Positions 12,801-37,380 of a stretch of DNA of 64,000 bases are shown here, in pieces. The notes under the pieces are model-generated. The model saw nothing but the letters and a program-made list of their open reading frames with translations. It made no database searches and had not been told where the DNA came from. The number at the start of each line of letters is the position of its first letter. Positions within the stretch are counted from its first letter, which is position 1. Source of the DNA: Heptranchias perlo (taxonomy: Eukaryota); NCBI RefSeq assembly GCF_035084215.1, contig NW_027139637.1, forward strand, positions 62,001-126,000. The letters run 5' to 3'. Both the position numbers and the translations under genes were made by a program.

Positions 12801-15800
12801 ACTGCCCTTTCAGGCGGTGAATTCCAGGTCTGTGTGAGGGAAAAAATTTCTCCTCATTTCCCCTCTAGTTCTTCAGCCAATTATTTTAAAATCGACGACC
12901 TCTGCGTCTTGATGCGTCGCAGCAACCAATCCCCGGGTTTAAGAGTCTCCAATTTAAACTACAGGCAGAGTCTCTGTTTGCCCGACATGGAAGGGTTTTG
13001 ATAAGAGCAGAGAGGGAGAAACCGTTTCCAGCGGCAGGAGGGTCGGTAACCAGAGGACACAGATTTAAGGTAACTGGCAGTAGATCCAGAGGGGGGGAAG
13101 ATGAGGAGAATGTTATTTTACGCAGCGAGTTGTTCTGATCTGGAATGCGCTGCCTGAAAGGGCGGTGGAAGCAGATTCAATAATAACTTTCAAAAGGGAA
13201 TTGAATAAATATTTATCTTAGAATCATACAGCACAGAAGGAGGCCATTCAGCCCATTCGTATCTGTGCTGGCTCTTTGAAAGAGCTCTCCAATTGGTCTC
13301 ACTCCCCCCCCTGCTCTTTCCCCACAGCCCTGAACATTTCTCCTTTTCAAGTATTTATCCAATTCCCTTTTGAAAGTCACGACTGAATCGAACATTTTGG
13401 GCCCCGTTATCCCTCCCGAGAATACGGGAACACTCCCTAAAAATCCAGCGGACCAGGCCACGCACAGGCTGACAAGAGAAACAGCGGACCTTGCTCAGGG
13501 GCAGTTGCGTGCCACAGGCGGGTAACTAAAGATCGGGCGCCGACCCAGCCTCACCTCGCATCTTGTGCCAGCTGACGGTGTCCACCATGTGCATCTCCCT
13601 GTTAAAACGCAGAGCGACAACGTTAGTGAGTCTCGGGCAAGAATCACGAATCCCCGCCCCACTCCCACCCAATGCTGGCATGGCGCCCACTTGAACCGCG
13701 ACCTCGCTGATCCCTGACGTTCACGCACGCCACGCGAGAGTGGCTGCCCCCCCCCCTCCGCCCCCAACATCAAGGCAATGCTCGACCAATTACGACGCCA
13801 AGGAGCCCCAGCGAAACGGAGGTCACTAGGGTCAGTAAACGGCTCACGGCGTTGCCCAGAATCCATCGATGAATGCAAGATGGCGGCCGGAGCGGAGACA
13901 CTTCAGGAGCCAACTCCACAGCGCCACCTGCTGGCCGGAACCTGCAACTACACCGTGACTGTTGACATAGCAATTTGCAATGCTGACAGGAAAACGGGAC
14001 CAACAAAATCCAGATAGCAGGAAGCATGGTTTTTGTTTCAAAAATGCATTCTCGGGATGTGGGCGTCGCTGGCAAGGCCGGCATTTATTGCCCGTCCCTC
14101 GTTGCCCCTTGAGAAGAGGCTGGTGGGCCTTCTTCTTGAACCCCTGTGGGGAAGCGACGTTGGGGAGGTAATTCCAGGATTGTGACCCAGCGACCACGAA
14201 GGAATGGCCGATGTGCGTCCAAGTCAGGGATGGCGCGGAGAGACTCGGGGCGGGGAACTTGGAGGTGATGTTGGAGGCGTCTGCTGCCCTTGTCCTTCGA
14301 GGTGGTGGAGGCCACGGGTTTGGAGGGTGCTGTCGAAGAAGCCTTGGGCGAGTTGCTGCAGGACATCCTGTGGATAGAACACATCCGTGGACGTTGCAGG
14401 CGATTTCCTTTGTGCGCGTTTCCCCAGACGAGACCTGGACGAGCGAGGCGGGAACGCGGCCCGAAACAGAGATGGACGTGCGCGGACTCACCCCATGAGG
14501 AGGTAGATGAGGATCGTCACCGACAAGAAGACGCCTTTGTAGCGCGAGTGGCGGCAGAGGAAGAGAACCACATAGCACATGAGGCTCAGCAGCACCACCC
14601 ACACCATCTGCAGCTGGAAGAAGTGGTAGAGGCAGTAAAAGCCACCAGTGACCGTGCTCAGGTGCTTCACCCACTGGGGCAGACCTGAGAGGGAGGAAGA
14701 GGGGGTGAGGGGAAGGGAGAGACATCAACGTTACAACACGGAGGCAGGGGCTCTTTAATAACTACAACCCGTCTAAATAACAAAGTCTCGCCCGCAGGAA
14801 CAGCCCGTCTGGTCAATCCCGGTGTTTATTCTCCACACGAGCCTCCTCCCTCCCTACTCCATCTCACCCTATCCTTCTATTCCTTTCTCCCTCATCCAGC
14901 TTCCCCTTAAATGCATCTGTGCCTCGACCACTCCCTGTGGGAGTGAGTTCCACATTCTCGCCACTCTCTGGGTAAAGAAGTTTCTCCTGAATTCCCGATT
15001 GGATTTATTACTGACTACCTTATATTTATGGCCCCGAGTTTTGGGACTCCCCCACAAGTGGAAACATCGTCTCTACGTCGACCGTTCATAATTTTGAAGA
15101 CCTCGATCAGGTCACCCCCTCACCATGGGAGGAGATGCAAAGTGTAGGGTCCGGGGTTCCACCCCACCTTTGCGCTGAGGGAGCCGATTTCAGGCGGGGA
15201 GGTTTTCGCAATTCACGCCAGCGTCCCAGGTGTCAGCCCTGGCTCAGTGAGGAGCACTCTCTCGCCACAGAGACAGAAAGTCGTGGGTTCGAGTCCCCAC
15301 TCCAGAGGCTTGAGCCCCATAATCCAGGCCGACACTCCCGGTGCGGAGGGAGCGCCGCGCTGTCGGAGGTGCCGTCTTTCGGATGAGACGTTAAACCGAG
15401 GCCCCGTCTGCCCCTCTCAGGTGGGACGTAAAAGATCCCACGGCCACTATTGGAAGAAGAGCAGGGGGAGTTCTCCCCGGTGTCCTGGGGCCAATATTTA
15501 TCCCTCAACTAACATCACTAAAAAACAGATGATCTGTGTCATTATCACATCACTGTTTGTGGGATCTTGCTGTGCGCAAATTGGCCGCCACGTTTCCCTA
15601 CGGTGACCACACTTCGAAAGTACTCCATTGGCTGTGAAGCGCTTTGGGACGTCCTGAGGTGGTGAAAGGGGCTGTGGGAATACAAAGTCTTTCTTTCATT
15701 TTAAGATCGGGGGGCGGGGGTTTCGGGAGGACGAATCAGTCAAGGTTACACTTCCTCAGCAACATCCAGAGACCCCCCCCCAAACCCCGACGGAGGGTGC

Positions 15801-18009: not shown

Positions 18010-18365
18010 CTCAACAAACGGCCGGCGTCGCGTCTCTTTCTTTCCCCCCCCTCTCTCTCTCTCTCTCACTTCAGACTCGGCCCGATTCTCCGTCTCACCT
18101 CCGACATTATAACCGGTCGAAGGAAAAAGAAAAAAAAGACTCGAAAACAAGAAGGCAGGGAGGCTCGCTGCCGCGCATGCGCCCGCCGGAGCGTCGCGAC
18201 GCAGGCGCAGTTGCTGGGTGCCCCCTGTGGTTGGGGGGGGGGGGGGGGAGGGTGTTTTGACACGCATGCGCCGCTCACGGACCCGGTCTGTATTTGCTGG
18301 GCATGCGCCCCTCACGGACCCGGTCTGTATTTGCTGGGCATGCGCATCCCGCCCGCGCCCGCGCC
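18010..18365 (-). promoter_or_regulatory. PORCN CpG promoter and putative non-coding exon 1
   Basis: GAG|GTAAAA donor at 18009/18010; several NRF1-like GCGCATGCGC/GCATGCGC motifs at 18173-18346; the exon-2 acceptor lies at 16261. Confidence 0.6.
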
Positions 18366-18419
18366 CTTCCCCACCGTGGGCTCCTGCAGCGCAGGAGGAG
18401 GCCATTCGGGCCATCGGTC

Positions 18420-19042: not shown

Positions 19043-21852
19043 TGGGGGGAAATGGGATTAAGGGGAGAGCTCTTTCAGGGAGGGGGTACAGGGGGCAATG
19101 GGACTGAGGGGAGAGCTGTTTCAGGGAGAGGGTACAGGGGGCGATGGGGGGAATGGGGACTGAGGGGAGAGCTCTATCAGGGAGAGGGTACAGGGGCGAT
19201 GGGGGGAATGGGACTGAGGGGAGAGCTCTATCAGGGAGAGGGTACAGGGGCGATGGGGGGAATGGGACTGAGGGGAGAGCTGTTTCAGGGAGAGGGTACT
19301 GGGGGCGATGGGGGGAATGGGGACTGAGGGGAGAGCTCTATCAGGGAGAGGGTACAGGGGCGATGGGGGGAATGGGACTGAGGGGAGAGCTCTTTCAGGG
19401 AGAGGGTACAGGGGGCAATGGGACTGAGGGGAGAGCTCTTTCAGGGGGCGATGGGGGGAATGGGGACTGAGGGGAGAGGGTACAGGGGGCGATGGGGGGA
19501 ATGGGGACTGAGGGGAGAGCTCTATCAGGGAGAGGGTACAGGGGCGAGGGGGGGAATGGGGACTGAGGGGAGAGATCTTTCGAGGAGAGGGTATAAGGGG
19601 AGATGGAGGGAATGTGGACTGTGGGGAGAGCTCTTTCAGGTAGAGGGCAATGGTGGGAATGGGACTGAGGGGAGAGCTCTTGAGGGGAGAGGGTACGGGG
19701 GCGATGGGGGGAATGGGACTGAGGGGAGAGCTCTTTCAGGGAGAGGGTACAGGGGGCGAGGGGGGGAATGGGGACTGAGGGGAGAGCTCTTTCAGGGAGA
19801 GGGCAAAGGGGGCGATGGGGGGAATGGGGACTGAGGGGAGAGCTCTTTCAGGGAGAGGGTACAGAGGACGATGAGGGGAATGGGGACTGAGGGGAGAGCT
19901 CTTTCAGGGAGAGGGTACAGGGGGCGATGGGCACTGAGGGGAGAGCTCTTTCAGGGAGGGGGTACAGGGGAATGGGGACTGAGGGGAGAGGGTACAGGGG
20001 CGATGGGGGGGAATGGGGACTGAGGGGAGAGCTCTTTCAGGGAGGGGGTACAGGGGGCGATGGGGGGAATGGGGACTGAGGGGAGAGCTCTTGAGGGGAG
20101 AGGGTACGGGGGCGATGGGGGGAATGGGGACTGAGGGGAGAGCTCTTGAGGGGAGAGGGTACGGGGGCGATGGGGGGAATGGGACTGAGGGGAGAGCTCT
20201 TTCAGGGAGAGGGTACAGGGGGCGAGGGGGGGAATGGGGACTGAGGGGAGAGCTCTTTCAGGGAGAGGGTACAGGGGGCGAGGGGGGGAATGGGGACTGA
20301 GGGGAGAGCACTTTCAGGGAGAGGGCAAAGGGGGCGATGGGGGGAATGGGGACTGAGGGGAGAGCTCTTTCAGGGAGAGGGTACAGAGGACGATGAGGGG
20401 AATGGGGACTGAGGGGAGAGCTCTTTCAGGGAGAGGGTACAGGGGGCGATGGGCACTGAGGGGAGAGCTCTTTTAGGGAGGGGGTACAGCGGGCAATTGG
20501 GTGAATGGGGACTGAGAGGAGAGCTCTTTCAGGGAGGGAGTACATGGGAATGGGGACTGAGGGGTGAGGGTACAGGGGCGATGGGGGGGAATGGGGACTG
20601 AGGGGAGAGCTCTTTCAGGGAGGGGGTACAGGGGGCGATGGGGGGAACGGGGACTGAGGGGAGAGGGTACAGGGGGCGATGGGGGGGGATTGGGGACTGA
20701 GGGGAGAGCTCTTTCAGGGAGAGGGTACAGGGGGCGATGGGGGGAATGGGGACTGAGGGGAGAGCTCTTTCAGGGAGAGGGTACAGGGGGTGATGGGGGG
20801 AATGGGGACTGAGGGGAGAGCTCTTTCAGGGAGGGGCAAAGGGGGCGATGGGGGGAATGGGGACTGAGGGGAGAGATCTTTCAGGGAGAGAGTACAGGGG
20901 GTGATGGGGGGAATGGGACTGAGGGGAGAGATCTTTCGAGGAGAGGGTATAGGGGGAGATGGAGGGAATGGGGACTGAGGGGAGAGATCTTTCTGGGAGA
21001 GGGGAGAGGGTACAGGGGGCGATGGGGGGAATGGGACTGAGGGGAGAGCTCTTGAGGGGAGAGGGTACGGGGGCAATGGGGGGAATGGAACTGAGGGGAG
21101 AGCTCTTGAGGGGAGAGGGTATGGGGGCGATGGGGGGGGAATAGCGACTGAGGGGAGAGCTCTTTCAGGGAGAGGGTACAGGGGGCGAGGGGGGGAATGG
21201 GGACTGAGGGGAGAGCTCTTTCAGGGAGAGGGTACGGGGGCGATGGGGGGAATGGGGACTGAGGGGAGAGCTCTTTCAGGGAGAGGGTACAGGGGGCGAT
21301 GAGGGGAATGGGGACTGAGGGGAGAGCTCTTTCAGGGAGAGGGTACAGGGGGCGATGGGGGGAATGGGGACTGAGGGGAGAGCTCTTTCAGGGAGAGGGT
21401 ACAGGGGGCGATGGGGGGAATGGGGATTGAGGGGAGAGCTCTTTCAGGGAGAGGGTACAGGGGGCGATGAGGGGAATGGGGACTGAGGGGAGAGCTCTTT
21501 CAGGGAGAGGGTACAGGGGGCGATGGGGGGAATGGGCACTGAGGGGAGAGGGTACAGGGGGCGATGGGGTGAATGGGGACTGAGGGGAGAGCTCTTTCAG
21601 GGAGAGGGTACAGGGGGCGATGGGGGGAATGGGCACTGAGGGGAGAGGGTACAGCGGGCGATGGGGGGAATGGGGACTGAGGGGAGAGCTCTTTCAGGGA
21701 GAGGGTACGGGGGGCGATGGGGGGACTGGGGACTGAGGGGAGAGGGTACAGGGGGCGATGGGGGGAATGGGGACTGAGGGGAGAGCTCTTTCAGGGAGAG
21801 GGTACGGGGGCGATGGGGGGAATGGGGATTGAGGGGAGAGCTCTTTCAGGGA
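19043..21852. repeat. G-rich ~55-bp minisatellite (GGGACTGAGGGGAGAGCTCTTTCAGGGAGAGGGTACAGGGGGCGATGGGGGGAATG)
   Basis: About 50 imperfect tandem copies between the PORCN and EBP promoters. Confidence 0.92.
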
Positions 21853-21914
21853 TGGGGCTAAGGGCTGCCCTCCACCACCTTTGCCCTTTGAGCCCGAGGG
21901 GACGGGGGGGTTTG

Positions 21915-22216
21915 ACCATGTTGCGATTGGCCCCGCCCCCCGGTCGTTGCCACAGCAACCCTCGGATGATGCGAGGCTCCCGCGCCAATCAGCGGAATCG
22001 AACGAGGGTGGCGCGCGGGCCGAGCGGCAACCGCCGCTCTCCGACGTCACCGTGACACGTGGGGTGTGACGGACCCTCCCATCGCGACTCGTCAAGGGCA
22101 GCGTCAATCATGCCAAGCGGAGATTTGATTGGTGGATTCGGCTACCAATCAGTCTAGGGCCCGCCCTCTCCCCATGCTGGGTATAAATAGTGGGCGGAGC
22201 GGCTCAGTTCTCAGTC
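21915..22216 (+). promoter_or_regulatory. EBP promoter: four CCAAT boxes, SRE-like element, GC boxes and TATA
   Basis: ATTGG/CCAAT at about 21926, 21985, 22128 and 22145; GTGGGGTGTGAC at 22059-22070; TATAAAT at 22182-22188. SREBP/NF-Y architecture is typical of sterol biosynthesis genes. Confidence 0.7.
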
Positions 22217-22228
22217 CCGCTGCCGGTG

Positions 22229-25200
22229 ATGGAAGGCTCAGGGTCGGCTGTGGTGGGCGAGGCCCACCCCTACTGGCCGCGGGAGCTCAGGCTCCCCGGG
22301 TACCGCAGCAACGACAGGCCCATGTGGAGTATCCTGGCCTTTCTCTTCTCCGTGTCCGGGGCGCTGCTGGCCGGTACCTGGCTGCTGACGGGCCGGGTTC
22401 GGGGGCTGGGCGCCGGCCGCAGGCTCGCCGTCTGCTGGTTCGCCGTCTGCGCCTTCATCCACGGGGTGATCGAGGGCTGGTTCAGCCTGTACTACCGGCA
22501 GATCCCCGGGGACCAGGCCTTCCTCTCCCAGCTGTGTGAGTGGGGGGCCACTGGGGGTCAGAGGGGGTGCCACTGGGGGTCGGGGGGGGCCACTGGGGGT
22601 CAGCAGAAGTGGGGGCGGGAAGGGGGCAATAGGGGTGGCAGAAGTGGGGGTGGGAAGGGGGCAACAGGGGTGGCAGAAGTGGGGGGGTAACAGGGGTTGT
22701 GGGGTAGCACTGGGGGTCAGAAGGGGGTTGGGGCAGAGAGGAGGCAACTGGGGGTCGGAGGGGGAGAGAAGGTGGGGAATATTGAGGCTTAAGGGGGACT
22801 GTGGGGTTGGATGAGAGGAGACAACTGCGGGGGGAAGCCTGGGGTGAAATAGGTGGTAACGTGGGTTGGCGTGCTGTTGCGAGACGAGCAGTATAACTGC
22901 GTCCTGGGTATTTTGAAGTCTGGGTTCAGTTATTCTCCCGTTCTGTTTCTGCAGGGAAGGAGTACGCCAAGGGAGACAGTCGCTATGTCACGTGAGTAAC
23001 TCGAGCCCCATCGCGCGCCCTGCTTGCGGTGTGGCTCTCCCCGCAGACAGCAGGAGCAGAGTCTCGCTCTGTCGGCGGAACTGGTCAGTGCGCCGACCTG
23101 GTTCGCCGCTGTGCAAAATGGCGTCGAGTCACTGGATCGGCTGCATCCAATTCAGTGGGTACCTCCACTCACTGTACAGAATCTGGGATCGAGCCGCCCC
23201 CTAATAACGTTCTCTCGGGAAAAGGAGGGGGAGCTGCCCACTCTGGTGGGAGACTCCTCTTCAAGTCTTGTTTTCCACCCCCCTCCCTATCTCTGTAACC
23301 TCCTCCAGCCCCTACAACCCTCCCAGATCTCTGCGCTCCTCCAATTCTGGCCTCTTGTCCATCCCCCGATTTCCATCGCTCCGCCATTGGAGGCCGTGCC
23401 TTCAGCCGCCTCAGCCCTAAGCTCTGGAATTCCCTCCCTAAACCTCTCCGCTCGCTCTCCTTTTTAAGACACTCCTTAAAACCGACCACTTTGACCAAGC
23501 TTTTGGTCGCCTGTCCGCATATCTCCTGATGTGGCTCAGTGTCAGATTTTTTTTGTCTGATTTACACTCCTGTGAAGTGCCTTGGGGATGTTTCACTATG
23601 TTAAAGGTGCTGTATAAATGCAGGTTGTGGTTTAAGGGGTGAACGTGGACCTGGGTGGGCTTCCAGGCCCCCCCCCCCCCCCCCCCAAGGACCAGGAGGA
23701 GGTGGGGGAAGATTTGGTAATAGTGCCCCAAACCGCTCTTAGTGATTTTTCTCTCGCACTCTCTCTCTCTGCAGTGCCGACAACTTCACCGTGTGCATGG
23801 AGACCATCACTGCCTGGACCTGGGGCCCACTGAGCGCCTGGACTGTCGTGGCCTTCCTGCAGAATAAGCCGTACCGTTTTGTCCTGCAACTCATCGTCTC
23901 CCTCGGTAAGGGCCGGAGGTTTCAGTCAGCACCGGGGTTGATGTTTGCCGCTCTGACCCTGGACCCGCCTCGGGGAGGAATCTGCAATCTTTCCCATCCG
24001 GCTCCAAAGTTACTGCAGGAATGGCAGTCGCAGGGAGTGTTTGATGGGACAGTGTAGAGGGAGCTTTACTCTGTATCTAACCCGTGCTGTACCTGCCCCG
24101 GGAGTGTTTGATGGGACAGTGTAGAGGGAGCTTTACTCTGTATCTAACCCTGTACCTGCCCTGGGAGTGTTTGATGGGACAGTTTAGGGGGAGCTTTACT
24201 CTGTATCTAACCCTGTACCTGCCCTGGGAGTGTTTGATGGGAGTGTAGAGGGAGCTTTACTCTGTATCTAACCCTGTACCTGCCCTGGGAGTGTTTGATG
24301 GGACAGTTTAGGGGGAGCTTTACTCTGTATCTAACCCTGTACCTGCCCTGGGAGTGTTTGATGGGAGTGTAGAGGGAGCTTTACTCTGTATCTAACCCTG
24401 TACCTGCCCTGGGAGTGTTTGATGGGAGTGTAGAGGGAGCTTTACTCTGTATCTAACCCTGTACCTGCCCCGGGAGTGTTTGATGGGACAGTGTAGAGGG
24501 AGCTTTACTCTGTATCTAACCCTGTACCTGCCCTGGGAGTGTTTGATGGGATAGTGTAGAGGGAGCTTTACTCTGTATCTAACCCGTGCTGTACCTGCCC
24601 TGGGAGTGTTTGATGGGACAGTGTAGAGGGAGCTTTACTCTGTATCTAACCCTGTACCTGCCCTGGGAGTGTTTGATGGGACAGTGTAGAGGGAGCTTTA
24701 CTCTGTATCTAATCCTGTACCTGCCCTGGGAGTGTTTGATGGGACAGTGTAGAGGGAGCTTTACTCTGTATCTAACCCGTGCTGTACCTGCCCTGGGAGT
24801 GTTTGATGGGACAGTGTAGAGGGAGCTTTACTCTGTATCTAACCCGTGCTGTACCTGCCCTGGGAGTGTTTGGTGGGACAGTGTAGAGGGAGCTTTACTC
24901 TGTATCTAACCCTGTACCTGCCCTGGGAGTGTTTGATGGGACAGTGTAGAGGGAGCTTTACTCTGTATCTAACCCTGTACCTGCCCTGGGAGTGTTTGAT
25001 GGGACAGTGTAGAGGGAGCTTTACTCTATCTAACCCGTGCTGTACTTGCCCTGGGCTGTGTTTAACCATTGTCCTTGCTCTGCAGGCCAGCTGTATGGCG
25101 ATGTGCTCTACTTTTACACTGAATACCGGGACGGTTTCAGCCACAGCGAGCTGGGACACCCCGTCTACTTCTGGTTCTACTTCATCTTCATGAACTCGCT

Positions 25201-25315
25201 CTGGATCGTCATCCCGGCCGCCCTGATCCTGGACGCCTGGGCCAACCTCAGCGAGGCGCAGCGAGCAGCCGATCGAGGGGCTCCCTGCCCCAGCGGCAAG
25301 TCCAAGACCACGTGA
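22229..25315 (+). CDS. EBP: 3-beta-hydroxysteroid delta8-delta7 isomerase (emopamil-binding protein), complete, 234 aa
   Basis: Exons 22229-22535, 22955-22991, 23775-23905 and 25086-25315 (705 nt, GT-AG). Motifs [52 protein letters not shown] and a C-terminal KSKTT ER-retrieval signal. Confidence 0.97.
23275..23630 (+). mobile_element. L2-type LINE 3'-end fragment
   Basis: GGCCGTGCCTTCAGCCGCCT...CTCTGGAATTCCCTCCCTAAACC and tail ATAAATGCAGGTTG. Confidence 0.75.
24031..25055 (-). repeat. 63-bp minisatellite family, ~16 copies, EBP intron 3
   Basis: Reverse complement of the 3774 and 51575 arrays; ends about 30 nt before the acceptor. Confidence 0.95.
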
Positions 25316-26488
25316 GAGGAGGACGGGGCTGGGCCTGCCTCGTCTTCCCTCCTCTTGCAGCCCTGGCGGTATAACGGGCCCCTCGATACCTTGACCAATG
25401 GCCATGGTCTGGGCTTGGGCCTTTGACCCTTGGTTGCCCAACGGAGCCTGTCTTAAGCAAGAAGATGGCTCTCCAGTCACACTTTTGAGGTTAACAACAC
25501 TGACTCGTTGGGGTGTACTGCGCCCAGTCTCTCATCGATGCTACCATGGTCAGTGCTCCTCTGAACTCTCCTACGTCTGATCGGCCAGACGTCTGACACA
25601 CATAAAAATCCATCACTATTGGCACCACCGATTCAAACTAACTAACCCACAAAGCTTGCCAAGCTCACGTTACCCATAACTGTTGGGGCATTGACCTGGA
25701 GGCTTACTGGAGCCAAGCGGAATGAATGCAGCCTCCCAGGAGGAGTCTGTTCAGCCTGTTCCGCCATTCAGTTAGATCATGGCTCCATTTGCCCATTGTT
25801 GGGTCTACCCCCAAACTCCGATACGGGCCGGTCGCTGACGGTGCCTTGTAGTGCTGCAGGCCTGCCTGGCTCTGAACTCTCCTCTCGTGTTCCTGCTAAG
25901 CTCCATCTCTCGTCCTACCCTCCTCGTCCTCCCCTTGCTGTGTGGAGATTAAGGACCCCCCCCCCCCTTACGTTGTCTCCTACACTCAGTCTTTCTCAGG
26001 ATCTCCAACACATGGAGCTCTTCTCCTTCCTCCTACAATCCATATCCCAAGCTTGGCGTCACCTAACCACTACAATGTACCTGTACCCCAGGGTGGCTGC
26101 TGCCAGTGAACCTCTGCCCCAGTGGGATGCTGGAGGGTGCATGGTGCCTGTGCCCCAGTGGGGTACTGGTAGTATTAGGAAATGAGGGACGGCCAGTGCT
26201 GGTGTAGCCGTACCCCATCAAGAGTCTGAACCTTATTCAGGAGGGATGTAGTACGTAAATCAGTGTCCCCACATTGTAACGTGCAGCTTGAAGGGTACAG
26301 TGGGGGTGTGGTGTTTGAATCCTCATGTCACTCGCTGTCTGGAATCGGATATTTTTAATGGTCTCTGAAGCTCTGCTGGGAGAATGGGACTAACTGGATT
26401 GCTCTTACAAAGAGCTGGCAGGGGTGTGATGGGCTGAATTCTCTTAATAGAGAATTATTAGCTGTCACTGGGACTGAGATATGTGTAA

Positions 26489-26883
26489 TAATAAAGCTAA
26501 TTGTTGCTAGACTTGATGTTGGGCTATTTGCACAATGTGTAGCAGTGGGAGAACCCACCGTCAGCAGTCAAGCTTTGTATGTGCAGAACCCTCTTGCTTC
26601 GGCTAAAGTCTGTTGTAAAACCCAGGGGACCAATCACCGCATTACAACTCAGATCAGTAAGCCAATGGTATGTGTACTGTATGGAGAATACTATTCAAAA
26701 CTTTAGTTAGTTTGTTGATGACTGAAGTGCTGTAATAAAGTTCTCCTAAATTACCATACCACTGCGCGCTGAATCTTTTTATGAGATCTTACAGTTCTTC
26801 TGTGCTGTAACCATTCTATGATTTTGATATTTTAATTTTATTAAATAAAGGTCTTTGTACTGAATGTATCTAATGTTAATAAA
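26489..26883 (+). terminator. Candidate EBP polyadenylation signals
   Basis: AATAAA at about 26490, 26734, 26844 and 26878 in an AT-rich 3' region. Confidence 0.5.
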
Positions 26884-27263
26884 TTATACATGCTGACCAC
26901 AAAAAAACCTCTTGTGCACTGTGCATGTGATGACTTGATGGTTAAGGGAGTGTCTCTAAATTCATACATGATTTAATGGGCACACTGACATCTCCTGAAT
27001 TAAGGGAACTGCTGTAAATGCCCGCTATTGTTGCACAACATCCCTCCCACAAACTTCAAGGGGGAGGGTTGATCTAATATTCCATGGTCTCTTGTAGCTA
27101 ATTTCTGTGGTGAGATTGTCGACTCTCTCTCGCAGCTGCTCTGTCTGGTTTCTGGGCATGTTAACAATGGTTTACCCACATTTATAAACAGGAAAGCTGT
27201 AACTGCAGCAATTTTTAAATAGCAAAGTGCTGTTTGGTGATATATTCCACAGAGGTGCTGACT

Positions 27264-28256
27264 GGTCCTCCCACCAGCAGGGGGCACTGCCACCACCTGG
27301 TGTTTGGTCCTCCCACCAGCAGGGGGCACTGCCACCACCTGGTGTTTGGTCCTCCCACCAGCAGGGGGCACTGCCACCACCTGGTGTTCGGTCCTCCCAC
27401 CAGCAGGGGGCACTGCAACCACTTGGTGTTCGGTCCTCCCACCAGCAGGGGTCGCTGCCACCGCCATGTGTTCAGTCCTCCCACCGGCAGGGGGCACTGC
27501 CACCGCCTGTTGCTCGGTCCTCCCACCAGCAGGGGGCACTGCTACCACCTGGTGTTCAATCCTCCCACCAGCAGGGGTCGCGGCCACCGCCTGTTGCTCG
27601 GTCCTCTCACCAGCAGGGGGCACTGCTACCACCTGGTGTTCAATCCTCCCACCAGCAGGGGGCACTGCCACCCCTTGGTGTTCGGTCCTCCCACCAGCAG
27701 GGGTCGCTGCCACTGCCATGTGTTCAGTCCTCCCACCAGCAGGGGGCACTGCCACCGCCTGTTGCTCGGTCCTCCCACCAGCAGGGGGCACTGCTACCAC
27801 CTGGTGTTCAATCCTCCCACCAGCAGGGGTCGCGGCCACCGCCTGTTGCTCGGTCCTCTCACCAGCAGGGGGCACTGCTACCACCTGGTGTTCAATCCTC
27901 CCACCAGCAGGGGGCACTGCCACCACCTGGTGTTTGGTCCTCCCACCAGCAGGGGGCACTGCCGCCACCTGGTGTTCGGTCCTCCCAACAGCAGGTGGCA
28001 CTGCCACGACCTGGTGTTCGGTCCTCCCACCAGCAGGGGACACTGCCACCATCTGGTGTTCGGTCCTCCCACCAGCAGGGGTCGCTGTCCCCGCCTGGTG
28101 TTCGGACCTCCCACCAGCAGGGGGCACCGCCACCACCTGGAGTTCGGTCCTCCCACCAGCAGGGGGCACCGCCACCACCTGGAGTTCGGTCCTCCCACCA
28201 GCAGGGGGCACCGCCACCACCTGGAGTTCGGTCCTCCCACCAGCAGGGGGCACCGC
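27264..28256 (+). repeat. 42-bp tandem array, 24 units, nearly each containing a CTCF core motif
   Basis: Unit GGTCCTCCCACCAGCAGGGGGCACTGCCACCACCTGGTGTTC; first core at 27271 and last at 28237, exactly 23x42 bp apart. Confidence 0.9.
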
Positions 28257-28345
28257 CCCCGCCCGGAGCCGCTGTCTCCCCGTCTCCGCCCCGGCCCCCA
28301 GACTGTCTGCTTCGCTGGCTGCGTCTGGCTGTGAGTCGGGTCGAC

Positions 28346-28375
28346 ATGGCTGGGCTGCCGCGGCGTATCGTTAAG
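28346..28375 (+). CDS. UBE2N: Ubiquitin-conjugating enzyme E2 N-like, first coding exon only
   Basis: GACATGG start encodes MAGLPRRIVK, followed by AAG|GTAACG. The recalled human UBE2N exon 1 is 30 nt, MAGLPRRIIK. Downstream exons were not found in the visible sequence. Confidence 0.8.
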
Positions 28376-28824
28376 GTAACGGGGCGGGGGTGGAGAGAGA
28401 GAGAGAGGGAGGAGACCGCGGCCTCGGGCCTGGGACTCGAGTAGAGGGGGAGAGGCTGCTCACCCGGGGGGTAGGGCGGGAGGATCGACCCCCTCCTCCA
28501 AACCTGGGCCCTGCAGCTCCCAAAGCCTCGGGCTGGGTTTACACTCCAGCCCGGGTAGGAGTTCCCAGCACCGGACACATGAGCTGGGTTCCCCCCCCCC
28601 CATTAATGAAATATTCAGTGTAAATACAGCCCTGGATTTAATCCCAGACAATTCCTGTTTATAAACTCTGTTTATAATTAAATGCATTCATTAGAAAGTT
28701 GTTTTCTTTAATTAGGACACTTTCCCCTCCAATATCTTTTCTCTTTAATCCGTCCCTGCCCCGACCCCGGATTCCAGAGGGCACTCATTCACCACCCGGA
28801 TGCCCATCGTGTGTCGGCTGGGAC

Positions 28825-29752
28825 TGTTGGGGTGAACGCGAGCCCGGCACCCCATCTATTGGGGGTGAACGCGAGCCCGACATCCCATCTATTGGGGAAA
28901 CGCGAGCCCGGCATCCCATCTATTGGGGAAACGCGAGCCCAGTATCCCATCTGTTGGGGGTGAACGCGAGCCCGACATCCCATCTATTGGGGAAACGCGA
29001 GCCCGACATCCCATCTATTGGGGAAACGCGAGCCCGGCATCCCATCTATTGGGGGTGAACGCGAGCCCAACATCTCATCTATTGGGGGTGAACGCGAGCC
29101 CGGCACCCCATCTATTGGGGAAACGCGAGCCCGACATCCCATCTATTGGGGAAACACGAGTCCAGTATCCCATCTATTGGGGGTGAACGCGAGCCCGGCA
29201 CCCCATCTGATGGGGGGAAACGCGAGCCCGACATCCCATCTGTTGGGGAAACGCGAGCCCGACATCCCATCTATTGGGGAAACGGGAACCCAGTATCCCA
29301 TCTGTTGGGGGTGAACGCGAGCCTGGCATCCCATCTGTTGGGGAAACGCGAGCCCGACATCCCATCTGTTGGGGAAACACGAGCCCGACATCCCATCTGT
29401 TGGGCAAGCGCGAGCCCAGTATCCCATCTGTTGGGGGTGAACGCGAGCCCGGCACCCCATCTGTTGGGGAAACGCGAGCCCGACATCCCATCTATTGGGG
29501 AAACGCGAGTCCAGTATCCCATCTGTTGGGGAAACGCGAGCCCAACATCCCATCTATTGGGGAAACGCGAGTCCAGTATCCCATCTGTTGGGGGTGAAAG
29601 CGAGCCCGACATCCCATCTGTTGGGGAAACGCGAGCCCAGTATCTCATCTGTTGGGGAAACGCGAGCCCAACATCCCATCTGTTGGGGGTGAACGCGAGC
29701 CCGACATCCCATCTGTTGGGGGAAACGCGAGCCCAACATCCCACCTGTTGGG
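28825..29752. repeat. ~31-33-bp minisatellite (CCCATCTRTTGGGG(GTG)AAACGCGAGCCCGACAT)
   Basis: About 28 tandem copies in UBE2N intron 1. Confidence 0.92.
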
Positions 29753-30752
29753 GAGGAGGGGTCAGACGTGTTGGGGTCCCCATATCCCACGCACACACTC
29801 GTATTCTAACAGGGGGTCCTTGGGTAGTGAGAGTGGTCAGTTTTTCCACCTCACATGCCCAGGGGCACTGAGGCCAAATGCAAACCCCCCACTGCCCATC
29901 ATCACTGCCCAGGGATCAGCTCAGAACGTTGTGTGGAGACACCGACACGGTCACCATGCCTCAGACTTGTTTGGGTAACTGGTCGATAAGAAGTTTTCTT
30001 GGGTTTATAGACCTGCACGTTGTGATCCCATAATCATGAGATTATAATCACAAATAATATCGTCACTACTGACCCAGGAAGGGAGAGCGGGATGGGAGAG
30101 GGGGAGAGGCGGATGGAGAGGGGGAGAGGCGGATAGAGAGTGGGAGGAGGTGGATGGAGAGTGGGAGGAGGTGGATGGAGAGTGGGAGGAGGTGGATGGA
30201 GAGANNNNNNNNNNNNNNNNNNNNNNNNNNNNNNNNNNNNNNNNNNNNNNNNNNNNNNNNNNNNNNNNNNNNNNNNNNNNNNNNNNNNNNNNNNNNNNNN
30301 NNNNNNNNNNNNNNNNNNNNNNNNNNNNNNNNNNNNNNNNNNNNNNNNNNNNNNNNNNNNNNNNNNNNNNNNNNNNNNNNNNNNNNNNNNNNNNNNNNNN
30401 NNNNTCCGGGGTCTGCCTCCTGATCTCAGGCAGCCAGCCCAGTTTTGGGACGTCCTGAGGAGGTGAAAGGTGCTGGAGAAATGGGAGTACTATATTGGTG
30501 CTCGGCGCCCCCTGGGCTAGGGAGGGTGGAATCAGCCAGGGTCCCTGCGCTTATACCACCCCCCCCACCCCCGCCCGATCATTCCTCAGTGACCCCGGCT
30601 GATTAACGCATGCACCTGGGGTGTTTGAGGACCGCCCAGGGCTCGACGGTGATGCCCCACACAGTCGGATATCCCGCCGGCCTTCACTAGCTCAGCTCGG
30701 AACGGCCAAGCGGCCATTTGGGCGAGGTGGCAGTGGACTTGCAGGCCGGGAC

Positions 30753-31390
30753 TCACTCCCCCTACCCTTTAATATCCCACCTAGTCTAATCCCACTCTCC
30801 CCCTCACTCCCCGTACCCTTTAATATCCCACCCAGTCTAATCCCACTCTCCCCCTCACTCCCCGTCCCCTTTAATATCCCACCCAGTCTAATCCCACCTC
30901 TCCCCCTCACTCCCCGTACCCTTTAATATCCCACCCAGTCTAATCCCACTCTCCCCCTCACTCCCCGTCCCCTTTAATATCCCACCCAGTCTAATCCCAC
31001 TCTCCCCCTCACTCCCCGTCCCCTTTAATATCCCACCCAGTCTAATCCCACTCTCCCCCTCACTCCCCGTCCCCTTTAATATCCCACCCAGTCTAATCCC
31101 ACTCTCCCCCTCACTCCCCGTCCCCTTTAATATCCCACCCAGTCTAATCCCACTCTCCCCTTCACTCCCCGTACCCTTTAATATCCCACCCAGTCTAATC
31201 CCACTCTCCCCTCACTCCCCGTACCCTTTAATATCCCACCCAGTCTAATCCCACTCTCCCCCTCACTCCCCCGTCCCCTTTAATATCCCACCCAGTCTAA
31301 TCCCACTCTCCCCCCTCACTCCCCGTCCCCTTTAATATCCCACCCAGTGTAATCCCACTCTCCCCCTCACTCCCCGTCCCCTTTAATACC
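30753..31390. repeat. ~51-bp C-rich minisatellite (CCTTTAATATCCCACCCAGTCTAATCCCACTCTCCCCCTCACTCCCCGT)
   Basis: About 12 tandem copies. Confidence 0.92.
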
Positions 31391-31397
31391 CTACCGT

Positions 31398-33510
31398 GCC
31401 TCAGAGGGACTCACTGTCCCCTGAACTCAGAAGGTCGAGGGTTCGAGCCCCCACTCCAGAGACTCGAGCCCCGTAATCCAGGCCCCGACACCCCCCCGGT
31501 GCCGGTACTGAGGGAGCGCCGCACTGTCGGAGGGTCGGTACTGAGGGAGCGCCGCACTGTCGGAGGGTCGGTACTGAGGGAGCGCCGCACTGTCGGAGGG
31601 TCGGTACTGAGGGAGCGCCGCACTGTCGGAGGGTCGGTACTGAGGGAGCGCCGCACTGTCGGAGGGTCGGTACTGAGGGAGCGCCGCACTGTCGGAGGGT
31701 CGGTACTGAGGGAGCGCCGCACTGTCGGAGGGTCGGGTACTGAGGGAGCGCCGCACTGTCGGAGGGGCGGTACTGAGGGAGCGCCGCACTGTCGGAGGGT
31801 CGGTACCGAGGGAGCGCCGCACTGTCGGAGGGTCGGTACCGAGGGAGCGCCGCACTGTCGGAGGGTCGGTACCGAGGGAGCGCCGCACTGTCGGAGGGTC
31901 GGTACCGAGGGAGCGCCGCACTGTCGGAGGGTCGGTACCGAGGGAGCGCCGCACTGTCGGAGGGGCGGGTACCGAGGGAGCGCCGCACTGTCGGAGGGTC
32001 GGTACCGAGGGAGCGCCGCACTGTCGGAGGGGCGGTACCGAGGGAGCGCCGCACTGTCGGAGGGTCGGTACCGAGGGAGCGCCGCACTGTCGGAGGGTCG
32101 GTACCGAGGGAGCGCCGCACTGTCGGAGGGTCGGTACCGAGGGAGCGCCGCACTGTCGGAGGGTCGGTACCGAGGGAGCGCCGCACTGTCGGAGGGTCGG
32201 TACTGAGGGAGCGCCGCACTGTCGGAGGGTCGGTACTGAGGGAGCGCCGCACTGTCGGAGGGGCGGTCCTGAGGGAGCGCCGCACTGTCGGAGGGTCGGT
32301 ACTGAGGGAGCGCCGCACTGTGGGAGGGTCGGTACTGAGGGAGCGCCACACTGTGGGAGGGTCGGTACTGAGGGAGCGCCACACTGTCGGAGGGTCGGTA
32401 CTGAGGGAGCGCCGCACTGTCGGAGGGTCGGTACTGAGGGAGCGCCGCACTGTCGGAGGGTCGGTACTGAGGGAGCGCCGCACTGTCGGAGGGTCAGTAC
32501 TGAGGGAGCGCCGCACTGTCGGAGGGTCGGTACTGAGGGAGCGCCGCACTGTCGGAGGGTCGGTACTGAGGGAGCGCCGCACTGTCGGAGGGTCGGTACT
32601 GAGGGAGCGCCGCACTGTGGGAGGGTCAGTACTGAGGGAGCGCCGCACTGTCGGAGGGTCGGTACTGAGGGAGCGCCGCACTGTCGGAGGGTCGGTACTG
32701 AGGGAGCGCCGCACTGTCGGAGGGTCGGTACTGTGGGAGCGCCGCACTGTCGGAGGGTCGGTACTGAGGGAGCGCCGCACTGTCGGAGGGTCGGTACTGA
32801 GGGAGCGCCGCACTGTCGGAGGGTCGGTACTGAGGGAGCGCCGCACTGTCGGAGGGTCGGTACTGAGGGAGCGCCGCACTGTCGGAGGGTCGGTACTGAG
32901 GGAGCGCCGCACTGTCGGAGGGTCGGTACTGAGGGAGCGCCGCACTGTCGGAGGGTCGGTACTGAGGGAGCGCCGCACTGTCGGAGGGTCGGTACTGAGG
33001 GAGCGCCGCACTGTCGGAGGGTCGGTACTGAGGGAGCGCCGCACTGTCGGAGGGTCGGTACTGAGGGAGCGCCGCACTGTCGGAGGGTCGGTACTGAGGG
33101 AGCGCCGCACTGTCGGAGGGTCAGTACTGAGGGAGCGCCGCACTGTCGGAGGGTCAGTACTGAGGGAGCGCCGCACTGTCGGAGGGTCCGTCTTCCAGGA
33201 TGAGATGTTAAACCGAGGGCCCCGTCAGCCCCTCTCGGGCGGGACGTAAAAGATCCCACGGCCGCTATTGGAAGAAGAGCAGAGGGGGAGCAGGGGGGGA
33301 GTTCTCCCCCGGGGTCCTGGGGCCGATATTTATCCCTCGACCAACATCGCTAAAAAAAAAACAGATGATCTGGGTCATTTATCACTTCGCTGTTTGTGGG
33401 ATCTTGCTGTGCGCAAATCGGCTGAAGCGTTTCGTACAGCGCCCACACTTCGAAACAAGTGCTCCGTTGGCCGTGAAGGGCTTTCGGGGACGTCCTGAGG
33501 TGGCGAGAGG
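31398..33510 (+). mobile_element. Deu-SINE with ~51x internal 33-bp expansion
   Basis: tRNA head (GGTTCGAGCCC at 31440), array (GTACTGAGGGAGCGCCGCACTGTCGGAGGGTCG)n at 31505-33187, then the Deu body. Confidence 0.88.
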
Positions 33511-36284
33511 GGCCGGAGAGATGGGGCGGGGGGGTGGTGGCTGACCCTTAAATCCATCTACGCTATCTGCCTCGACCACTGGGGAGCGAGTTGCAAATTC
33601 TCACCGCTCTCTGGGTGAAGAAGTTTCTCCTGAATTCCCCGATTGGATTTTTTTTTGTTGCGGGACTCTGGAGACATTCTCAGGGAGACAGGAACCCGTC
33701 GGAGAGAGGAGGGAAACTCTCTCAGCTCTGCTCGGGGATGGTTGACTGACCCCCTCGCACTGCGTCGCTGCACAGAACCGAAAACACTTTGCGCCCTCTC
33801 TTTTAACGCCTGCGGTTTGGAGTGGAGAGCGGCGGGATTAAATTATCGCCGTTTCCAGCGAACGTTCCCCGCAGACGCCAGCCCGCCCGCGCCCCCTCTC
33901 AGCCCTCCCGTCCTGGCAGCCACTTTCTCACAAGGATTTATTTTTAGCCGTGTCGCAACTGCGCCTTTAAGAGGCGGAAAACGTCCAGAAGTGTCAGCCA
34001 CCGCCCTGACGCGATGGGTCTGTGATTCTCCCCCCCCCCACACGGTGATGGGACGGGGGGGTCTGTGTCTGTGATTCTCCCCCACCCCACACGGTGATGG
34101 GACGGGGGGTCTGTGTCTGTGATTCTCCCCCACACACGGTGATGGGACGTGAGAGAGAGAGAGGGAGAGGGAGTGTGGGAGAAAGGGGGAGAGTGGGGAG
34201 AGGGAGAGAGAGAGTGGGGAGAGAAGGGAGAGGGGGGAAGAGAGAGGGAGTGAGGGAGAGAGAAGGAGAGAGAGAGAGAGAGAGGAGAGAAAGAGAGGGG
34301 AGAGAGTGGGGGTGAGGGAGAGAGAGGGAGAGAGAGTGGCAAAAAGTGGGAGAGGNNNNNNNNNNNNNNNNNNNNNNNNNNNNNNNNNNNNNNNNNNNNN
34401 NNNNNNNNNNNNNNNNNNNNNNNNNNNNNNNNNNNNNNNNNNNNNNNNNNNNNNNNNNNNNNNNNNNNNNNNNNNNNNNNNNNNNNNNNNNNNNNNNNNN
34501 NNNNNNNNNNNNNNNNNNNNNNNNNNNNNNNNNNNNNNNNNNNNNNNNNNNNNNNNNNNNNNNNNNNNNNNNNNNNNNNNNNNNNNNNNNNNNNNNNNNN
34601 NNNNNNNNNNNNNNNNNNNNNNNNNNNNNNNNNNNNNNNNNNNNNNNNNNNNNNNNNNNNNNNNNNNNNNNNNNNNNNNNNNNNNNNNNNNNNNNNNNNN
34701 NNNNNNNNNNNNNNNNNNNNNNNNNNNNNNNNNNNNNNNNNNNNNNNNNNNNNNNNNNNNNNNNNNNNNNNNNNNNNNNNNNNNNNNNNNNNNGGTGAGG
34801 GAGAGAGGGAGAGAGAGTGGCAAAAAGNNNNNNNNNNNNNNNNNNNNNNNNNNNNNNNNNNNNNNNNNNNNNNNNNNNNNNNNNNNNNNNNNNNNNNNNN
34901 NNNNNNNNNNNNNNNNNNNNNNNNNNNNNNNNNNNNNNNNNNNNNNNNNNNNNNNNNNNNNNNNNNNNNNNNNNNNNNNNNNNNNNNNNNNNNNNNNNNN
35001 NNNNNNNNNNNNNNNNNNNNNNNNNNNNNNNNNNNNNNNNNNNNNNNNNNNNNNNNNNNNNNNNNNNNNNNNNNNNNNNNNNNNNNNNNNNNNNNNNNNN
35101 NNNNNNNNNNNNNNNNNNNNNNNNNNNNNNNNNNNNNNNNNNNNNNNNNNNNNNNNNNNNNNNNNNNNNNNNNNNNNNNNNNNNNNNNNNNNNNNNNNNN
35201 NNNNNNNNNNNNNNNNNNNNNNNNNNNNNNNNNNNNNNNNNNNNNNNNNNNNNNNNNNNNNNNNNNNNNNNNNNNNNNNNNNNNNNNNNNNNNNNNNNNN
35301 NNNNNNNNNNNNNNNNNNNNNNNNNNNNNNNNNNNNNNNNNNNNNNNNNNNNNNNNNNNNNNNNNNNNNNNNNNNNNNNNNNNNNNNNNNNNNNNNNNNN
35401 NNNNNNNNNNNNNNNNNNNNNNNNNNNNNNNNNNNNNNNNNNNNNNNNNNNNNNNNNNNNNNNNNNNNNNNGGTGAGGGAGAGAGAGGGAGAGAGAGTGG
35501 CAAAAAGTGGGAGAGGGGGGACGAGAGGGGGGNNNNNNNNNNNNNNNNNNNNNNNNNNNNNNNNNNNNNNNNNNNNNNNNNNNNNNNNNNNNNNNNNNNN
35601 NNNNNNNNNNNNNNNNNNNNNNNNNNNNNNNNNNNNNNNNNNNNNNNNNNNNNNNNNNNNNNNNNNNAGAGGGGGTTTGACGTTTACTTTCCCTGCTGTC
35701 TCTGTGTGCGGCGGGGTGGTAAACACTGCGGGCCTCCCCTCCTCTCTCTCCCCCCCCCGTGAAACCCCGCTCCCCCCTCCCCGACAGAGGAGGGGGGCCG
35801 CAAACGAGGCCCCCTGGAGAGGGGGCGGGGGGTTAAAGGTCACCGCCAACTTGCGCCTTCGGGGAGGGGGGGCGGATGTTTGCTGTCTGATCTCCCCCCG
35901 GCCGTCTCCCCGTCTCCCCGTCTCCCCCCGTCTCCCCGGTACAAACCTGTCTGGTTGCTCACCCCCCTCCTCAGCTAAGGGCAGGCCGCAGTCCCCGCTC
36001 CCTCTCTCTCCATCCCACCGCCTAGGCCCGAAAAAGCCTCCCGAGCGGTTAGAGCTCCCCCTCATGGCTGGCTCGTTAACAGCTCAGGGCGAAAGAGAAG
36101 TCGGTTTATTCGCGTGCGCGGAGGAGGAGGGAGGGGGAGGGGGGAGGGGGGGGCGGGGGGGAAGAGCCGATATTTCGCACAGCAAGATCCCGCGAGCAGC
36201 CGACCCGACGAGCCACCAGCTGGTCGTCAAGGCTCCCCGCCGCGGGGCTGACGCATCGCTCGCGCCCCCCCCCCCTCCCCCGCC

Positions 36285-37380
36285 TTGGCTCGGCGGGGCC
36301 TCGCTCCCTCCCCTCGGAGACGGAAGGTCGAGGGTTCGAGCCCCCGCCCCCTCCCCTCACTCCAGAGACTCGAGCCCCGTAATCCAGGCCCCGACTCTCC
36401 CCCCGCCGCTCACCGAGGGAGCGCCGCGCTGTCGGGGGGCCGGTGCCGAGGGAGCGCCGCGCTGTCGGAGGGCCGGTGCCGAGGGAGCGCCGCGCTGTCG
36501 GAGGGTCGGTGCCGAGGGAGCGCCGCGCTGTCGGAGGGTCGGTGCCGAGGGAGCGCCGCGCTGTCGGAGGGTCGGTGCCGAGGGAGCGCCGCGCTGTCGG
36601 AGGGTCGGTACCGAGGGAGCGCCGCGCTGTCGGAGGGTCGGTACCGAGGGAGCGCCACGCTGTGGGAGGGTCGGTACTGAGGGAGCGCCGCACTGTCGGA
36701 GGGTCGGTACTGAGGGAGCGCCGCACTGTCGGAGGGTCGGTACTGAGGGAGCGCCGCGCTGTCGGAGGGTCGGTGCCGAGGGAGCGCCGCGCTGTCGGAG
36801 GGTCGGTGCCGAGGGAGCGCCGCGCTGTCGGAGGGTCGGTACTGAGGGAGCGCCGCGCTGTCGGAGGGTCGGTACTGAGGGAGCGCCGCGCTGTGGGAGG
36901 GTCGGTACTGAGGGAGCGCCGCACTGTCGGAGGGTCGGTACTGAGGGAGCGCCGCGCTGTCGGAGGGTCGGTACTGAGGGAGCGCCGCGCTGTCGGAGGG
37001 GCAGTACTGAGGGAGCGCCGCACTGTCGGAGGGTCGGTACTGAGGGAGCGCCGCGCTGTCGGAGGTCGGTACTGAGGGAGCGCCGCACTGTCGGAGGGTC
37101 GGTACTGAGGGAGCGCCGCGCTGTCGGAGGGTCGGTACTGAGGGAGCGCCGCGCTGTCGGAGGGGCAGTACTGAGGGATGAGACGTTTAAACCGAGGACC
37201 CCCGTCCGGCCTCTCAGGTGGGACGTAAAAGATCCTCAGTACTGACCCTCCGACAGTGCGGCGCTCCCTCAGCACTGGTACCGGGGGAGTGTCGGGGCCT
37301 GGATTACGGGGCTCGAGTCTCGGGAATGTGGGCTCGAACCCCCGACCTTCTGACTCCGAGGGGGGAGACAGTGAGACCCC
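36285..37380 (+). mobile_element. Deu-SINE with ~23x 33-bp expansion, joined to an inverted SINE head
   Basis: Head at 36285-36410, array at 36412-37178, inverted head at 37238-37380. Confidence 0.85.

What the first reader, a model, noticed from the sequence alone, without database searches (positions are those of the whole stretch)
27264..28256. Array of 24 co-oriented CTCF motifs at 42-bp pitch between EBP and the UBE2N-like promoter
Seen: most units contain CCAGCAGGGGGCAC, a near-perfect match to the CTCF core. The common variants (CCAGCAGGGGTCGC, ACAGCAGGTGGCAC) remain motif-like. There are no indels across 24 units, the pitch equals four helical turns, a 252-bp (6-unit) higher-order duplication is present, and most cores lack CpG. 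A weaker reverse motif (CACCAGGTGG) also occurs in many units. The array ends about 90 bp before the UBE2N ATG. Known: tandem CTCF repeats such as DXZ4 and FIRRE form super-loop anchors and strong boundaries in mammals. Inference: a minisatellite-built super-insulator or loop anchor, possibly length-polymorphic. This is the best candidate for an undescribed system in the window.
Basis: partly seen in the sequence, partly recalled or inferred. Interest (0 to 1): 0.8.

Follow-up and report, generated by a model that had tools for sequence, protein, structure and literature searches.

The report
Amplified promoter CTCF site in shark
In a repeat-saturated stretch of a shark genome, a 42-base piece of promoter carrying a binding motif for the genome-folding protein CTCF has been copied 24 times head to tail, and the copies show modest signs that the motif is being preserved, though binding and any insulator effect are untested.

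Summary
The array is real: 23 full and 1 partial 42-bp units at 27264-28257, no indels, a 6-unit duplication. All 24 units carry a strong co-oriented CTCF core (16-22 of 26 bits, recalled matrix); 0 of 20,000 shuffles and 0 of 26 other arrays come close. New here: each unit also has an upstream-module-like 10-mer at linker 6 (7-8/10 in 23 of 23 junctions), so one unit is about one full CTCF footprint. The window is shark DNA (EBP exon identical to Heptranchias perlo), 46% tandem repeat. The last unit merges with the GC box of a UBE2N-like promoter, the place and orientation of an ordinary promoter-proximal CTCF site. Best reading: local minisatellite amplification of that site, with modest constraint (motif damage p 0.015-0.07; no indels p 0.001-0.008). 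The helical-pitch argument and the reverse motif are not supported. 'Super-insulator' is untested. CTCF-site minisatellites beside promoters are known (DXPas34), so this is a variant, not a new system.

The parts
27264..28257 (+). 42-bp minisatellite, 23 full units plus 1 partial, no indels, 29 distinct substitution alleles
27271..27289 (+). First forward CTCF 19-mer (unit positions 8-26); repeats every 42 bp to 28237-28255; 16.1-22.2 bits in 24 of 24 units
   Evidence: matrix MA0139.1 recalled
28237..28255 (+). Last forward CTCF 19-mer, the likely ancestral promoter-proximal site, in direct orientation with the UBE2N-like gene, ending 90 bp before its ATG
   Evidence: class described; ancestry is inference
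27297..27306 (+). First internal upstream-module-like 10-mer (unit positions 34-42 plus 1 of the next unit), 6-bp linker before the next 19-mer; 7-8 of 10 at all 23 junctions; the last is 28221-28230
   Evidence: consensus from PMC12885311; not protected from substitution
27372..27390 (-). Example of the reverse CTCF-like motif (unit positions 25-43), 16.0 bits in the consensus, 12 bits or more in 13 of 24 units, overlapping the upstream-module-like 10-mer; decaying freely
27432..27893 (+). 252-bp higher-order duplication: units 5-9 repeated as units 11-15
28253..28264 (+). GC box (Sp1-type, label recalled) where unit 24 runs into the promoter; CpGs retained here that internal units have as TG/CA
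28346..28375 (+). UBE2N-like coding exon 1 (10 codons) followed by a GT donor; later exons not found in the sequenced part of the window
22229..25315 (+). EBP gene (four coding exons), upstream neighbour on the same strand
26490..26883 (+). Four AATAAA/ATTAAA hexamers, candidate EBP poly(A) signals; the last lies about 380 bp before the array
   Evidence: use as signals is inference
13919..13937 (-). Single strong CTCF site (23.6 bits, upstream module 7 of 10 at linker 6) in a PORCN intron; internal comparison, not part of the array
60201..60219 (-). Strongest reverse-oriented motif to the right (17.8 bits), a possible convergent partner, but several N gaps lie between
   Evidence: partnership is inference

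Best explanation
A lineage-level minisatellite expansion of an ordinary promoter-proximal CTCF site. The promoter of a UBE2N-like gene carried one CTCF site in direct orientation just upstream of its GC box. In this repeat-prone region a 42-bp piece holding that site was duplicated and amplified by slippage or unequal exchange (one 252-bp event is visible), and internal copies lost CpGs. Because 42 bp holds upstream module, linker, core and a short tail, each unit is still a usable site and CTCF molecules could sit head to tail without sharing bases. CTCF probably binds at least the promoter-side units and works as it does at such promoters: it marks the edge of the nucleosome-free region, damps upstream antisense or incoming EBP read-through transcription, and is a one-way cohesin barrier facing the gene. 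Shown: repeat anatomy, motif strength, orientation, position, substitution and indel patterns. Inferred: origin, binding, every functional step.
For: 24 of 24 units score 16.1-22.2 bits; 0 of 20,000 shuffled units reach 21.5 and none of 26 other arrays has a 12-bit site. The motif is the same in lamprey, chicken and mammals (PMC5504073) and oriented CTCF motifs mark skate TAD borders (PMC10115646), so the mammalian matrix applies to a shark. CTCF-dependent promoters carry the site about 60 bp upstream of the TSS, 90% in direct orientation (10.1101/095802); proximal sites suppress upstream antisense transcription (10.1101/2021.10.30.465508). Unit 24 joins the GC box, is closest to units 21-23 (3-4 differences against 5-9; weak clade 89/80) and CpG o/e rises from 0.30 in units 1-23 to 0.77 in unit 24 plus promoter; two columns show CG with both TG and CA. 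The 19-mer occurs nowhere else in the window. Constraint: summed motif loss -16.8 bits against -36 to -44 expected (p 0.015-0.029; copy-weighted p 0.021-0.067); 0 indels among 29 alleles against 58 of 247 in 17 other arrays (p 0.001-0.008); upstream-module match p 0.008.
Against: No binding, chromatin or cross-species data. The count test alone is not significant (9 of 29 alleles in the 19-mer, p 0.087) and the damage of those 9 alleles is not significantly low (p 0.06-0.13). The upstream-like module is not protected (4 matches lost, 4.9 expected, p 0.43) and misses its fourth base in every unit. CpG-type transitions are only weakly enriched (p 0.06-0.10). The array was picked because its motifs look intact, the tests are post hoc, and indels in control arrays may include sequencing error. 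The TSS is unknown and the gene is seen only as a 10-codon exon. The matrix is recalled.
Confidence: 0.55

Rival explanations
1. Neutral passenger: same origin, but only the last site (or none) matters; the other 23 copies are methylated, nucleosome-covered repeat like the window's other arrays, and the apparent sparing of the core reflects uneven mutation along the unit plus selection of this array by the reader.
For: 27 arrays, 46% of sequenced bases. Strong single sites occur at about 2-3 per 33 kb of non-repeat DNA, so by rough estimate 2-6% of such windows would have an array seeded on one (my arithmetic). Signs of CpG decay in internal units. Conditional and count tests not significant; module unprotected. 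In a reporter assay, gains shrink beyond two sites and some 6-15-site clusters do not insulate (10.1101/2020.07.07.192526).
Against: Forward motif spared while the reverse motif of similar length is not; no unit below 16 bits; most diverged indel-free array of 18 examined.
Confidence: 0.25
2. Selected super-insulator or loop anchor: the copy number itself is functional, the array is densely loaded with CTCF and forms a strong rightward boundary.
For: All constraint signals above. Tandem sites add insulation (PMC7087399); the upstream module marks insulator-grade sites (PMC12885311); human HRNR VNTR length tracks predicted CTCF site number and predicted folding (PMC10234305). A reverse site lies to the right.
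Against: No Hi-C or ChIP. Known superloop anchors have 3-5 kb units. Returns diminish beyond two sites. Neighbours look like housekeeping genes with no evident enhancer to block (inference). Pitch argument fails.
Confidence: 0.13
3. A recombination-type GC-rich minisatellite, or a site for another zinc-finger protein (ZIC-type motif, recalled), whose likeness to CTCF is incidental.
For: The unit contains the Chi octamer on the minus strand (intact in 20 of 24 units, read), and Chi-like motifs are listed as recombination and minisatellite motifs (PMC2408603). The unit is an imperfect palindrome, 12 of 15.
Against: Chi explains 8 of 19 motif bases; the G-rich 3' half and the module register are CTCF-specific. 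No other array here has Chi. Folding is no better than shuffles (z -0.83).
Confidence: 0.05
4. A coding 14-residue repeat (for example an N-terminal extension of the UBE2N-like protein), which would explain the lack of indels.
For: 42 is a multiple of 3; all three plus frames are open and one is in frame with the ATG at 28346.
Against: No synonymous excess in any of 6 frames (p 0.16-0.88); no upstream ATG in the in-frame ORF; no homolog among the 8,000 candidates scored for that frame (other frames not searched).
Confidence: 0.02

Closest known systems
Promoter-proximal, direct-orientation CTCF sites (10.1101/095802; 10.1101/2021.10.30.465508)
   Same: Strong motif just upstream of a CpG-richer promoter, pointing with transcription.
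   Different: Those are single sites, and Nora et al. found no enrichment of tandem sites at affected promoters; here there are 24 copies.
DXPas34 minisatellite beside the mouse Tsix promoter (PMC3149622)
   Same: Short tandem unit (34 bp), a CTCF site per monomer, next to a promoter, lineage-restricted origin by local amplification.
   Different: DXPas34 is CpG-rich, its sites were called with loose consensuses and vary in number among rodents, and it acts in X inactivation; this array is CpG-poor with near-optimal cores and sits at an apparent housekeeping gene in a shark. No sequence comparison was made.
DXZ4 and ICCE macrosatellite superloop anchors (PMC6125249); FIRRE (recalled)
   Same: Tandem repeat with CTCF motifs in each unit.
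   Different: Units of about 3 and 5 kb, inactive-X-specific superloops, motif conserved across mammals; here 42-bp units, 1 kb in all, no loop data.
Subtelomeric TERRA-promoter CTCF sites (PMC5727389) and 2xCTS clusters (PMC4562119)
   Same: Closely spaced co-oriented motifs (about 35 bp apart at the 17p family) upstream of a transcription start, needed for its activity.
   Different: Two sites, not a 24-unit array.
Human HRNR VNTR (PMC10234305) and HSV-1 CTRL2 cluster (PMC5801469)
   Same: Repeat-borne multiple CTCF sites linked to folding, insulation or expression.
   Different: HRNR is a coding repeat with long units; CTRL2 is viral (its short-repeat structure is recalled, not seen in the passages read).

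Membership tests
Vertebrate CTCF binding site | Strong match to the core motif | tested here: met
   16.1-22.2 of 26.1 bits in 24 of 24 units, p 3e-6 to 3e-8 (recalled matrix); 16 of 24 exact to the recalled consensus
Vertebrate CTCF binding site | Upstream module (ZF9-11) at the proper linker, found in about 13% of sites | tested here: inconclusive
   7-8 of 10 at linker 6 in 23 of 23 junctions, p 0.008; fourth base always wrong and no protection from substitution, p 0.43
Vertebrate CTCF binding site | Occupancy by CTCF in chromatin | not testable with these tools
   No ChIP or footprint data available
Promoter-proximal direct-orientation CTCF site | Motif in direct orientation with the downstream gene | tested here: met
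   Plus-strand motifs and plus-strand exon
Promoter-proximal direct-orientation CTCF site | Within about 100 bp upstream of the TSS | tested here: inconclusive
   Last motif ends 90 bp before the ATG, TSS unknown; gene seen only as exon 1
DXPas34-like CTCF minisatellite | Short tandem unit with a CTCF site in each monomer, beside a promoter | tested here: met
   definition
DXPas34-like CTCF minisatellite | CpG-rich monomers | tested here: not met
   CpG o/e 0.30 in units 1-23
DXPas34-like CTCF minisatellite | Motif kept in orthologous arrays of related species | not testable with these tools
DXZ4/ICCE-type superloop anchor | Kilobase-scale repeat units (macrosatellite) | tested here: not met
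   42 bp against about 3 and 5 kb
DXZ4/ICCE-type superloop anchor | Anchors long-range loops on an inactive X | not testable with these tools
   No Hi-C or allele-specific data
Chi-core hypervariable minisatellite | Chi or Chi-like core in the unit | tested here: met
   Chi octamer in the consensus, in no other of 27 arrays
Chi-core hypervariable minisatellite | High allelic length variation | not testable with these tools
Coding tandem repeat | Synonymous excess in one frame | tested here: not met
   p 0.16-0.88 in six frames

The most novel reading that the evidence does not exclude
A naturally evolved CTCF lattice: the repeat unit is exactly one full two-part CTCF footprint, so up to 24 CTCF molecules pack head to tail over 1 kb, kept in register by selection against indels. 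It would act as a methylation-insensitive, copy-number-tunable barrier that shields a housekeeping promoter from read-through and repeat-borne silencing on a minisatellite-saturated shark chromosome, and such arrays might recur at other promoters of these chromosomes.
Probability: 0.15. Interest if true: 0.72.

Novelty: new variant of a known kind. Interest (0 to 1): 0.45.

Why it matters
If CTCF loads several units, this is a natural test of how site number and minimal spacing set insulation and cohesin blocking, at a density far above engineered arrays (139-bp units in 10.1101/2020.07.07.192526), and the 1-kb fragment can go straight into EMSA and reporter assays. It would also show that minisatellite turnover can amplify architectural sites in cartilaginous fish, beside the transposon route described for lamprey and mammals. 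If only the last site is bound, it is an ordinary promoter site with a repeat tail.

Tried and rejected
Helical phasing: 8 of 26 other arrays are equally near whole turns. Reverse motif as a second functional site: unprotected. Coding repeat: rejected. Structured RNA or hairpin: no Rfam family at gathering score in 25300-42500; two units fold as DNA no better than shuffles. Older degenerate copies in the flanks: not significant (p 0.18 and 0.59). Run-length stability of the core G run: inconclusive, since 2 of 10 control runs are also invariant and the shorter runs in the array come from substitutions. A test that none of 9 core alleles costs over 4 bits gave p 0.006, but the threshold was post hoc and three alleles cost 3.5-3.8 bits, so I do not rely on it. 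Unit tree: 12 of 15 branches open, no firm polarity. The matrix could not be verified in print (0 papers); its column sums are consistent, 908-913. Two papers were not held. No supplementary files were read; shark CTCF ChIP-seq peak lists in supplements or in papers outside the library could bear on binding.

Full report
Observation. TRF finds the array at 27264-28257, period 42, 23.7 copies, 87% matches, no indels. Cut at 42 bp, all units stay in register and unit 3 equals the consensus. A reverse motif at positions 25-43 scores 16.0 in the consensus and 12 or more in 13 of 24 units. None of 20,000 shuffled units reaches 21.5 bits and none of the other 26 arrays holds a 12-bit site. Units 5-9 recur 252 bp later as units 11-15.

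Context. EBP exon 1 is identical to an NCBI protein of Heptranchias perlo on a 129-kb contig; the next hits include other sharks at 80-86%. The cluster has a second H. perlo copy on a 3.9-Mb sequence with two substitutions. Gene order is PORCN on the minus strand (one exon tested), EBP, the array, a UBE2N-like first exon, and a FYVE-domain gene (rabenosyn-like by my reading). The UBE2N label rests on 10 codons, 9 equal to UBE2N, followed by a donor site; 15 of 16 PDB hits were UBE2N but at E about 0.8. Later exons were not found by short-motif search and may lie in the 200-N gap at 30205 (inference). Tandem repeats cover 28,304 of 61,694 sequenced bases, so arrays form readily here. Four poly(A)-type hexamers lie at 26490-26878, which places the array between the probable EBP 3' end and the next promoter.

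PMC12885311 (passages) gives the ZF9-11 module as CTGCAGTTCC or CAGCTGTTCC-like, typically 5 bp (range 2-7) before three bases and the core. At linker 6 all 23 internal junctions match 7-8 of 10; shuffling the 23 non-core bases gives 8 of 10 at linker 5 or 6 with p 0.008, at any linker 2-7 with p 0.024. The single strong site in the PORCN intron has 7 of 10 at the same linker. Module, linker and 19-mer take 35 of the 42 bp, so one unit is about one CTCF footprint. This accounts for the pitch better than helical turns, which 8 of 26 other arrays share. Against it: the fourth module base is wrong in every unit, and the module loses matches at the random rate (p 0.43).

Origin. The last unit runs into a GC box and is closest to units 21-23. 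CpG o/e is 0.30 in units 1-23 and 0.77 in unit 24 plus promoter, and two columns show CG beside both TG and CA, though CpG-type transitions are only weakly enriched (p 0.06-0.10). The 19-mer has no other copy in the window. In mouse ES cells, promoters that need CTCF carry the site about 60 bp upstream of the TSS, 90% in direct orientation (10.1101/095802, passages), and proximal sites block upstream antisense initiation without acting as enhancer blockers (10.1101/2021.10.30.465508, passages). Unit 24 fits this class. The motif is shared by lamprey, chicken and mammals (PMC5504073, passages) and oriented motifs mark skate TAD borders (PMC10115646, passages). I infer local amplification of a pre-existing promoter site. 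With 2-3 strong sites per 33 kb of non-repeat DNA and 10-27 arrays, roughly 2-6% of such windows would seed an array on a site by chance (my arithmetic), so existence alone does not show selection in a genome-wide scan.

Constraint. There are 29 distinct substitution alleles in units 1-23; the partial unit 24 was left out of these counts. Nine fall in the forward 19-mer (13 expected, p 0.087). Their summed cost is -16.8 bits against -36 to -44 when alleles are re-placed at random, p 0.015-0.029; weighting by copy number gives p 0.021-0.067 (8 null models). The reverse motif loses more than expected (p 0.78-0.97), an internal contrast. Given nine alleles inside the motif, their cost is lower than random but not significantly (p 0.06-0.13). 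No indel occurs, against 58 of 247 alleles in 17 other arrays that I chose from the TRF list (p 0.001 beta-binomial; 0.008 after dropping the four most homopolymer-rich); six of the 17 are also indel-free but have 12 or fewer substitution alleles. These tests are post hoc, the array was chosen for its intact motifs, and control indels may include read errors. I take them as modest evidence of constraint. A coding explanation fails, as does RNA or hairpin structure.

Mechanism and rivals. Most likely (0.55) CTCF binds at least the promoter-side units and does what promoter-proximal sites do, with extra copies adding redundancy; most cores lack CpG, so methylation need not block them (established property of CTCF, recalled). 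A neutral tail on one working site is the main rival (0.25). A selected super-insulator is possible (0.13): tandem sites add insulation (10.1101/2020.07.07.192526, passages; PMC7087399, passages), but gains shrink after two sites and depend on flanks. The unit also holds the Chi octamer (PMC2408603, passages), which explains only part of the motif (0.05).

Comparison and novelty. DXPas34 is a 34-bp minisatellite described with a CTCF site per monomer beside the Tsix promoter (PMC3149622, passages): the closest kind, but CpG-rich and tied to X inactivation. DXZ4 and ICCE have 3-5 kb units (PMC6125249, passages), so membership fails on unit size. Paired sites at TERRA starts (PMC5727389), 2xCTS clusters (PMC4562119), HSV-1 CTRL2 (PMC5801469) and the HRNR VNTR (PMC10234305) were seen as passages only. 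PMC9974502 (passages) describes GC-rich, methylated, housekeeping-gene-rich dot chromosomes in chicken; that this locus lies on a similar chromosome is my inference. Searches for a shark or short-unit CTCF array (listings only) showed no report of this locus; the library lacks most subscription papers. Verdict: a real and unusually clean CTCF-motif minisatellite, a new variant of a known kind, function untested; interest 0.45.

Noticed in passing
window 28376-42100: No later UBE2N exons found; the 200-N gap at 30205-30404 may be a scaffold join of unknown size that hides them, so distances to the right are unreliable.
   Followed up: partly
window 22229-25315: The H. perlo EBP cluster has two members differing at two residues, on 129-kb and 3.9-Mb sequences: a second haplotype or a duplicate, useful for comparing array length.
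   Followed up: partly
window 6000-25315: PORCN next to EBP, the same neighbours as on human Xp11.23 (synteny recalled; one PORCN exon tested).
   Followed up: partly
window 13919-13937 (-): Single near-optimal CTCF site (23.6 bits) with upstream module in a PORCN intron; with the array it forms a divergent pair around the PORCN and EBP promoters.
   Followed up: partly
window 8821, 16362, 31503, 36415 (33 bp) and 3774, 24033, 51581 (63 bp): The same two repeat units recur at several loci; the 33-bp arrays sit inside copies of a dispersed SINE-like element (element label from reading).
   Followed up: no
window 41110-42025: Long inverted duplication flanking a short frame that resembles the endonuclease end of Penelope-like retroelements (label recalled).
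   Followed up: no
window 42070-42320: CpG-rich promoter with several ACTACA-type elements (ZNF143-like, recalled) upstream of the FYVE gene; a minus-strand splice-acceptor-like site near 37456 hints at a divergent transcript.
   Followed up: no
window 33800-34010 and 35670-36400: CpG-rich non-repeat islands between gaps with no gene assigned; possible promoter or enhancer.
   Followed up: no
window 22545-22605: A short 20-22 bp repeat at the start of EBP intron 1 holds three weak plus-strand CTCF-like matches, 10-13.5 bits.
   Followed up: no
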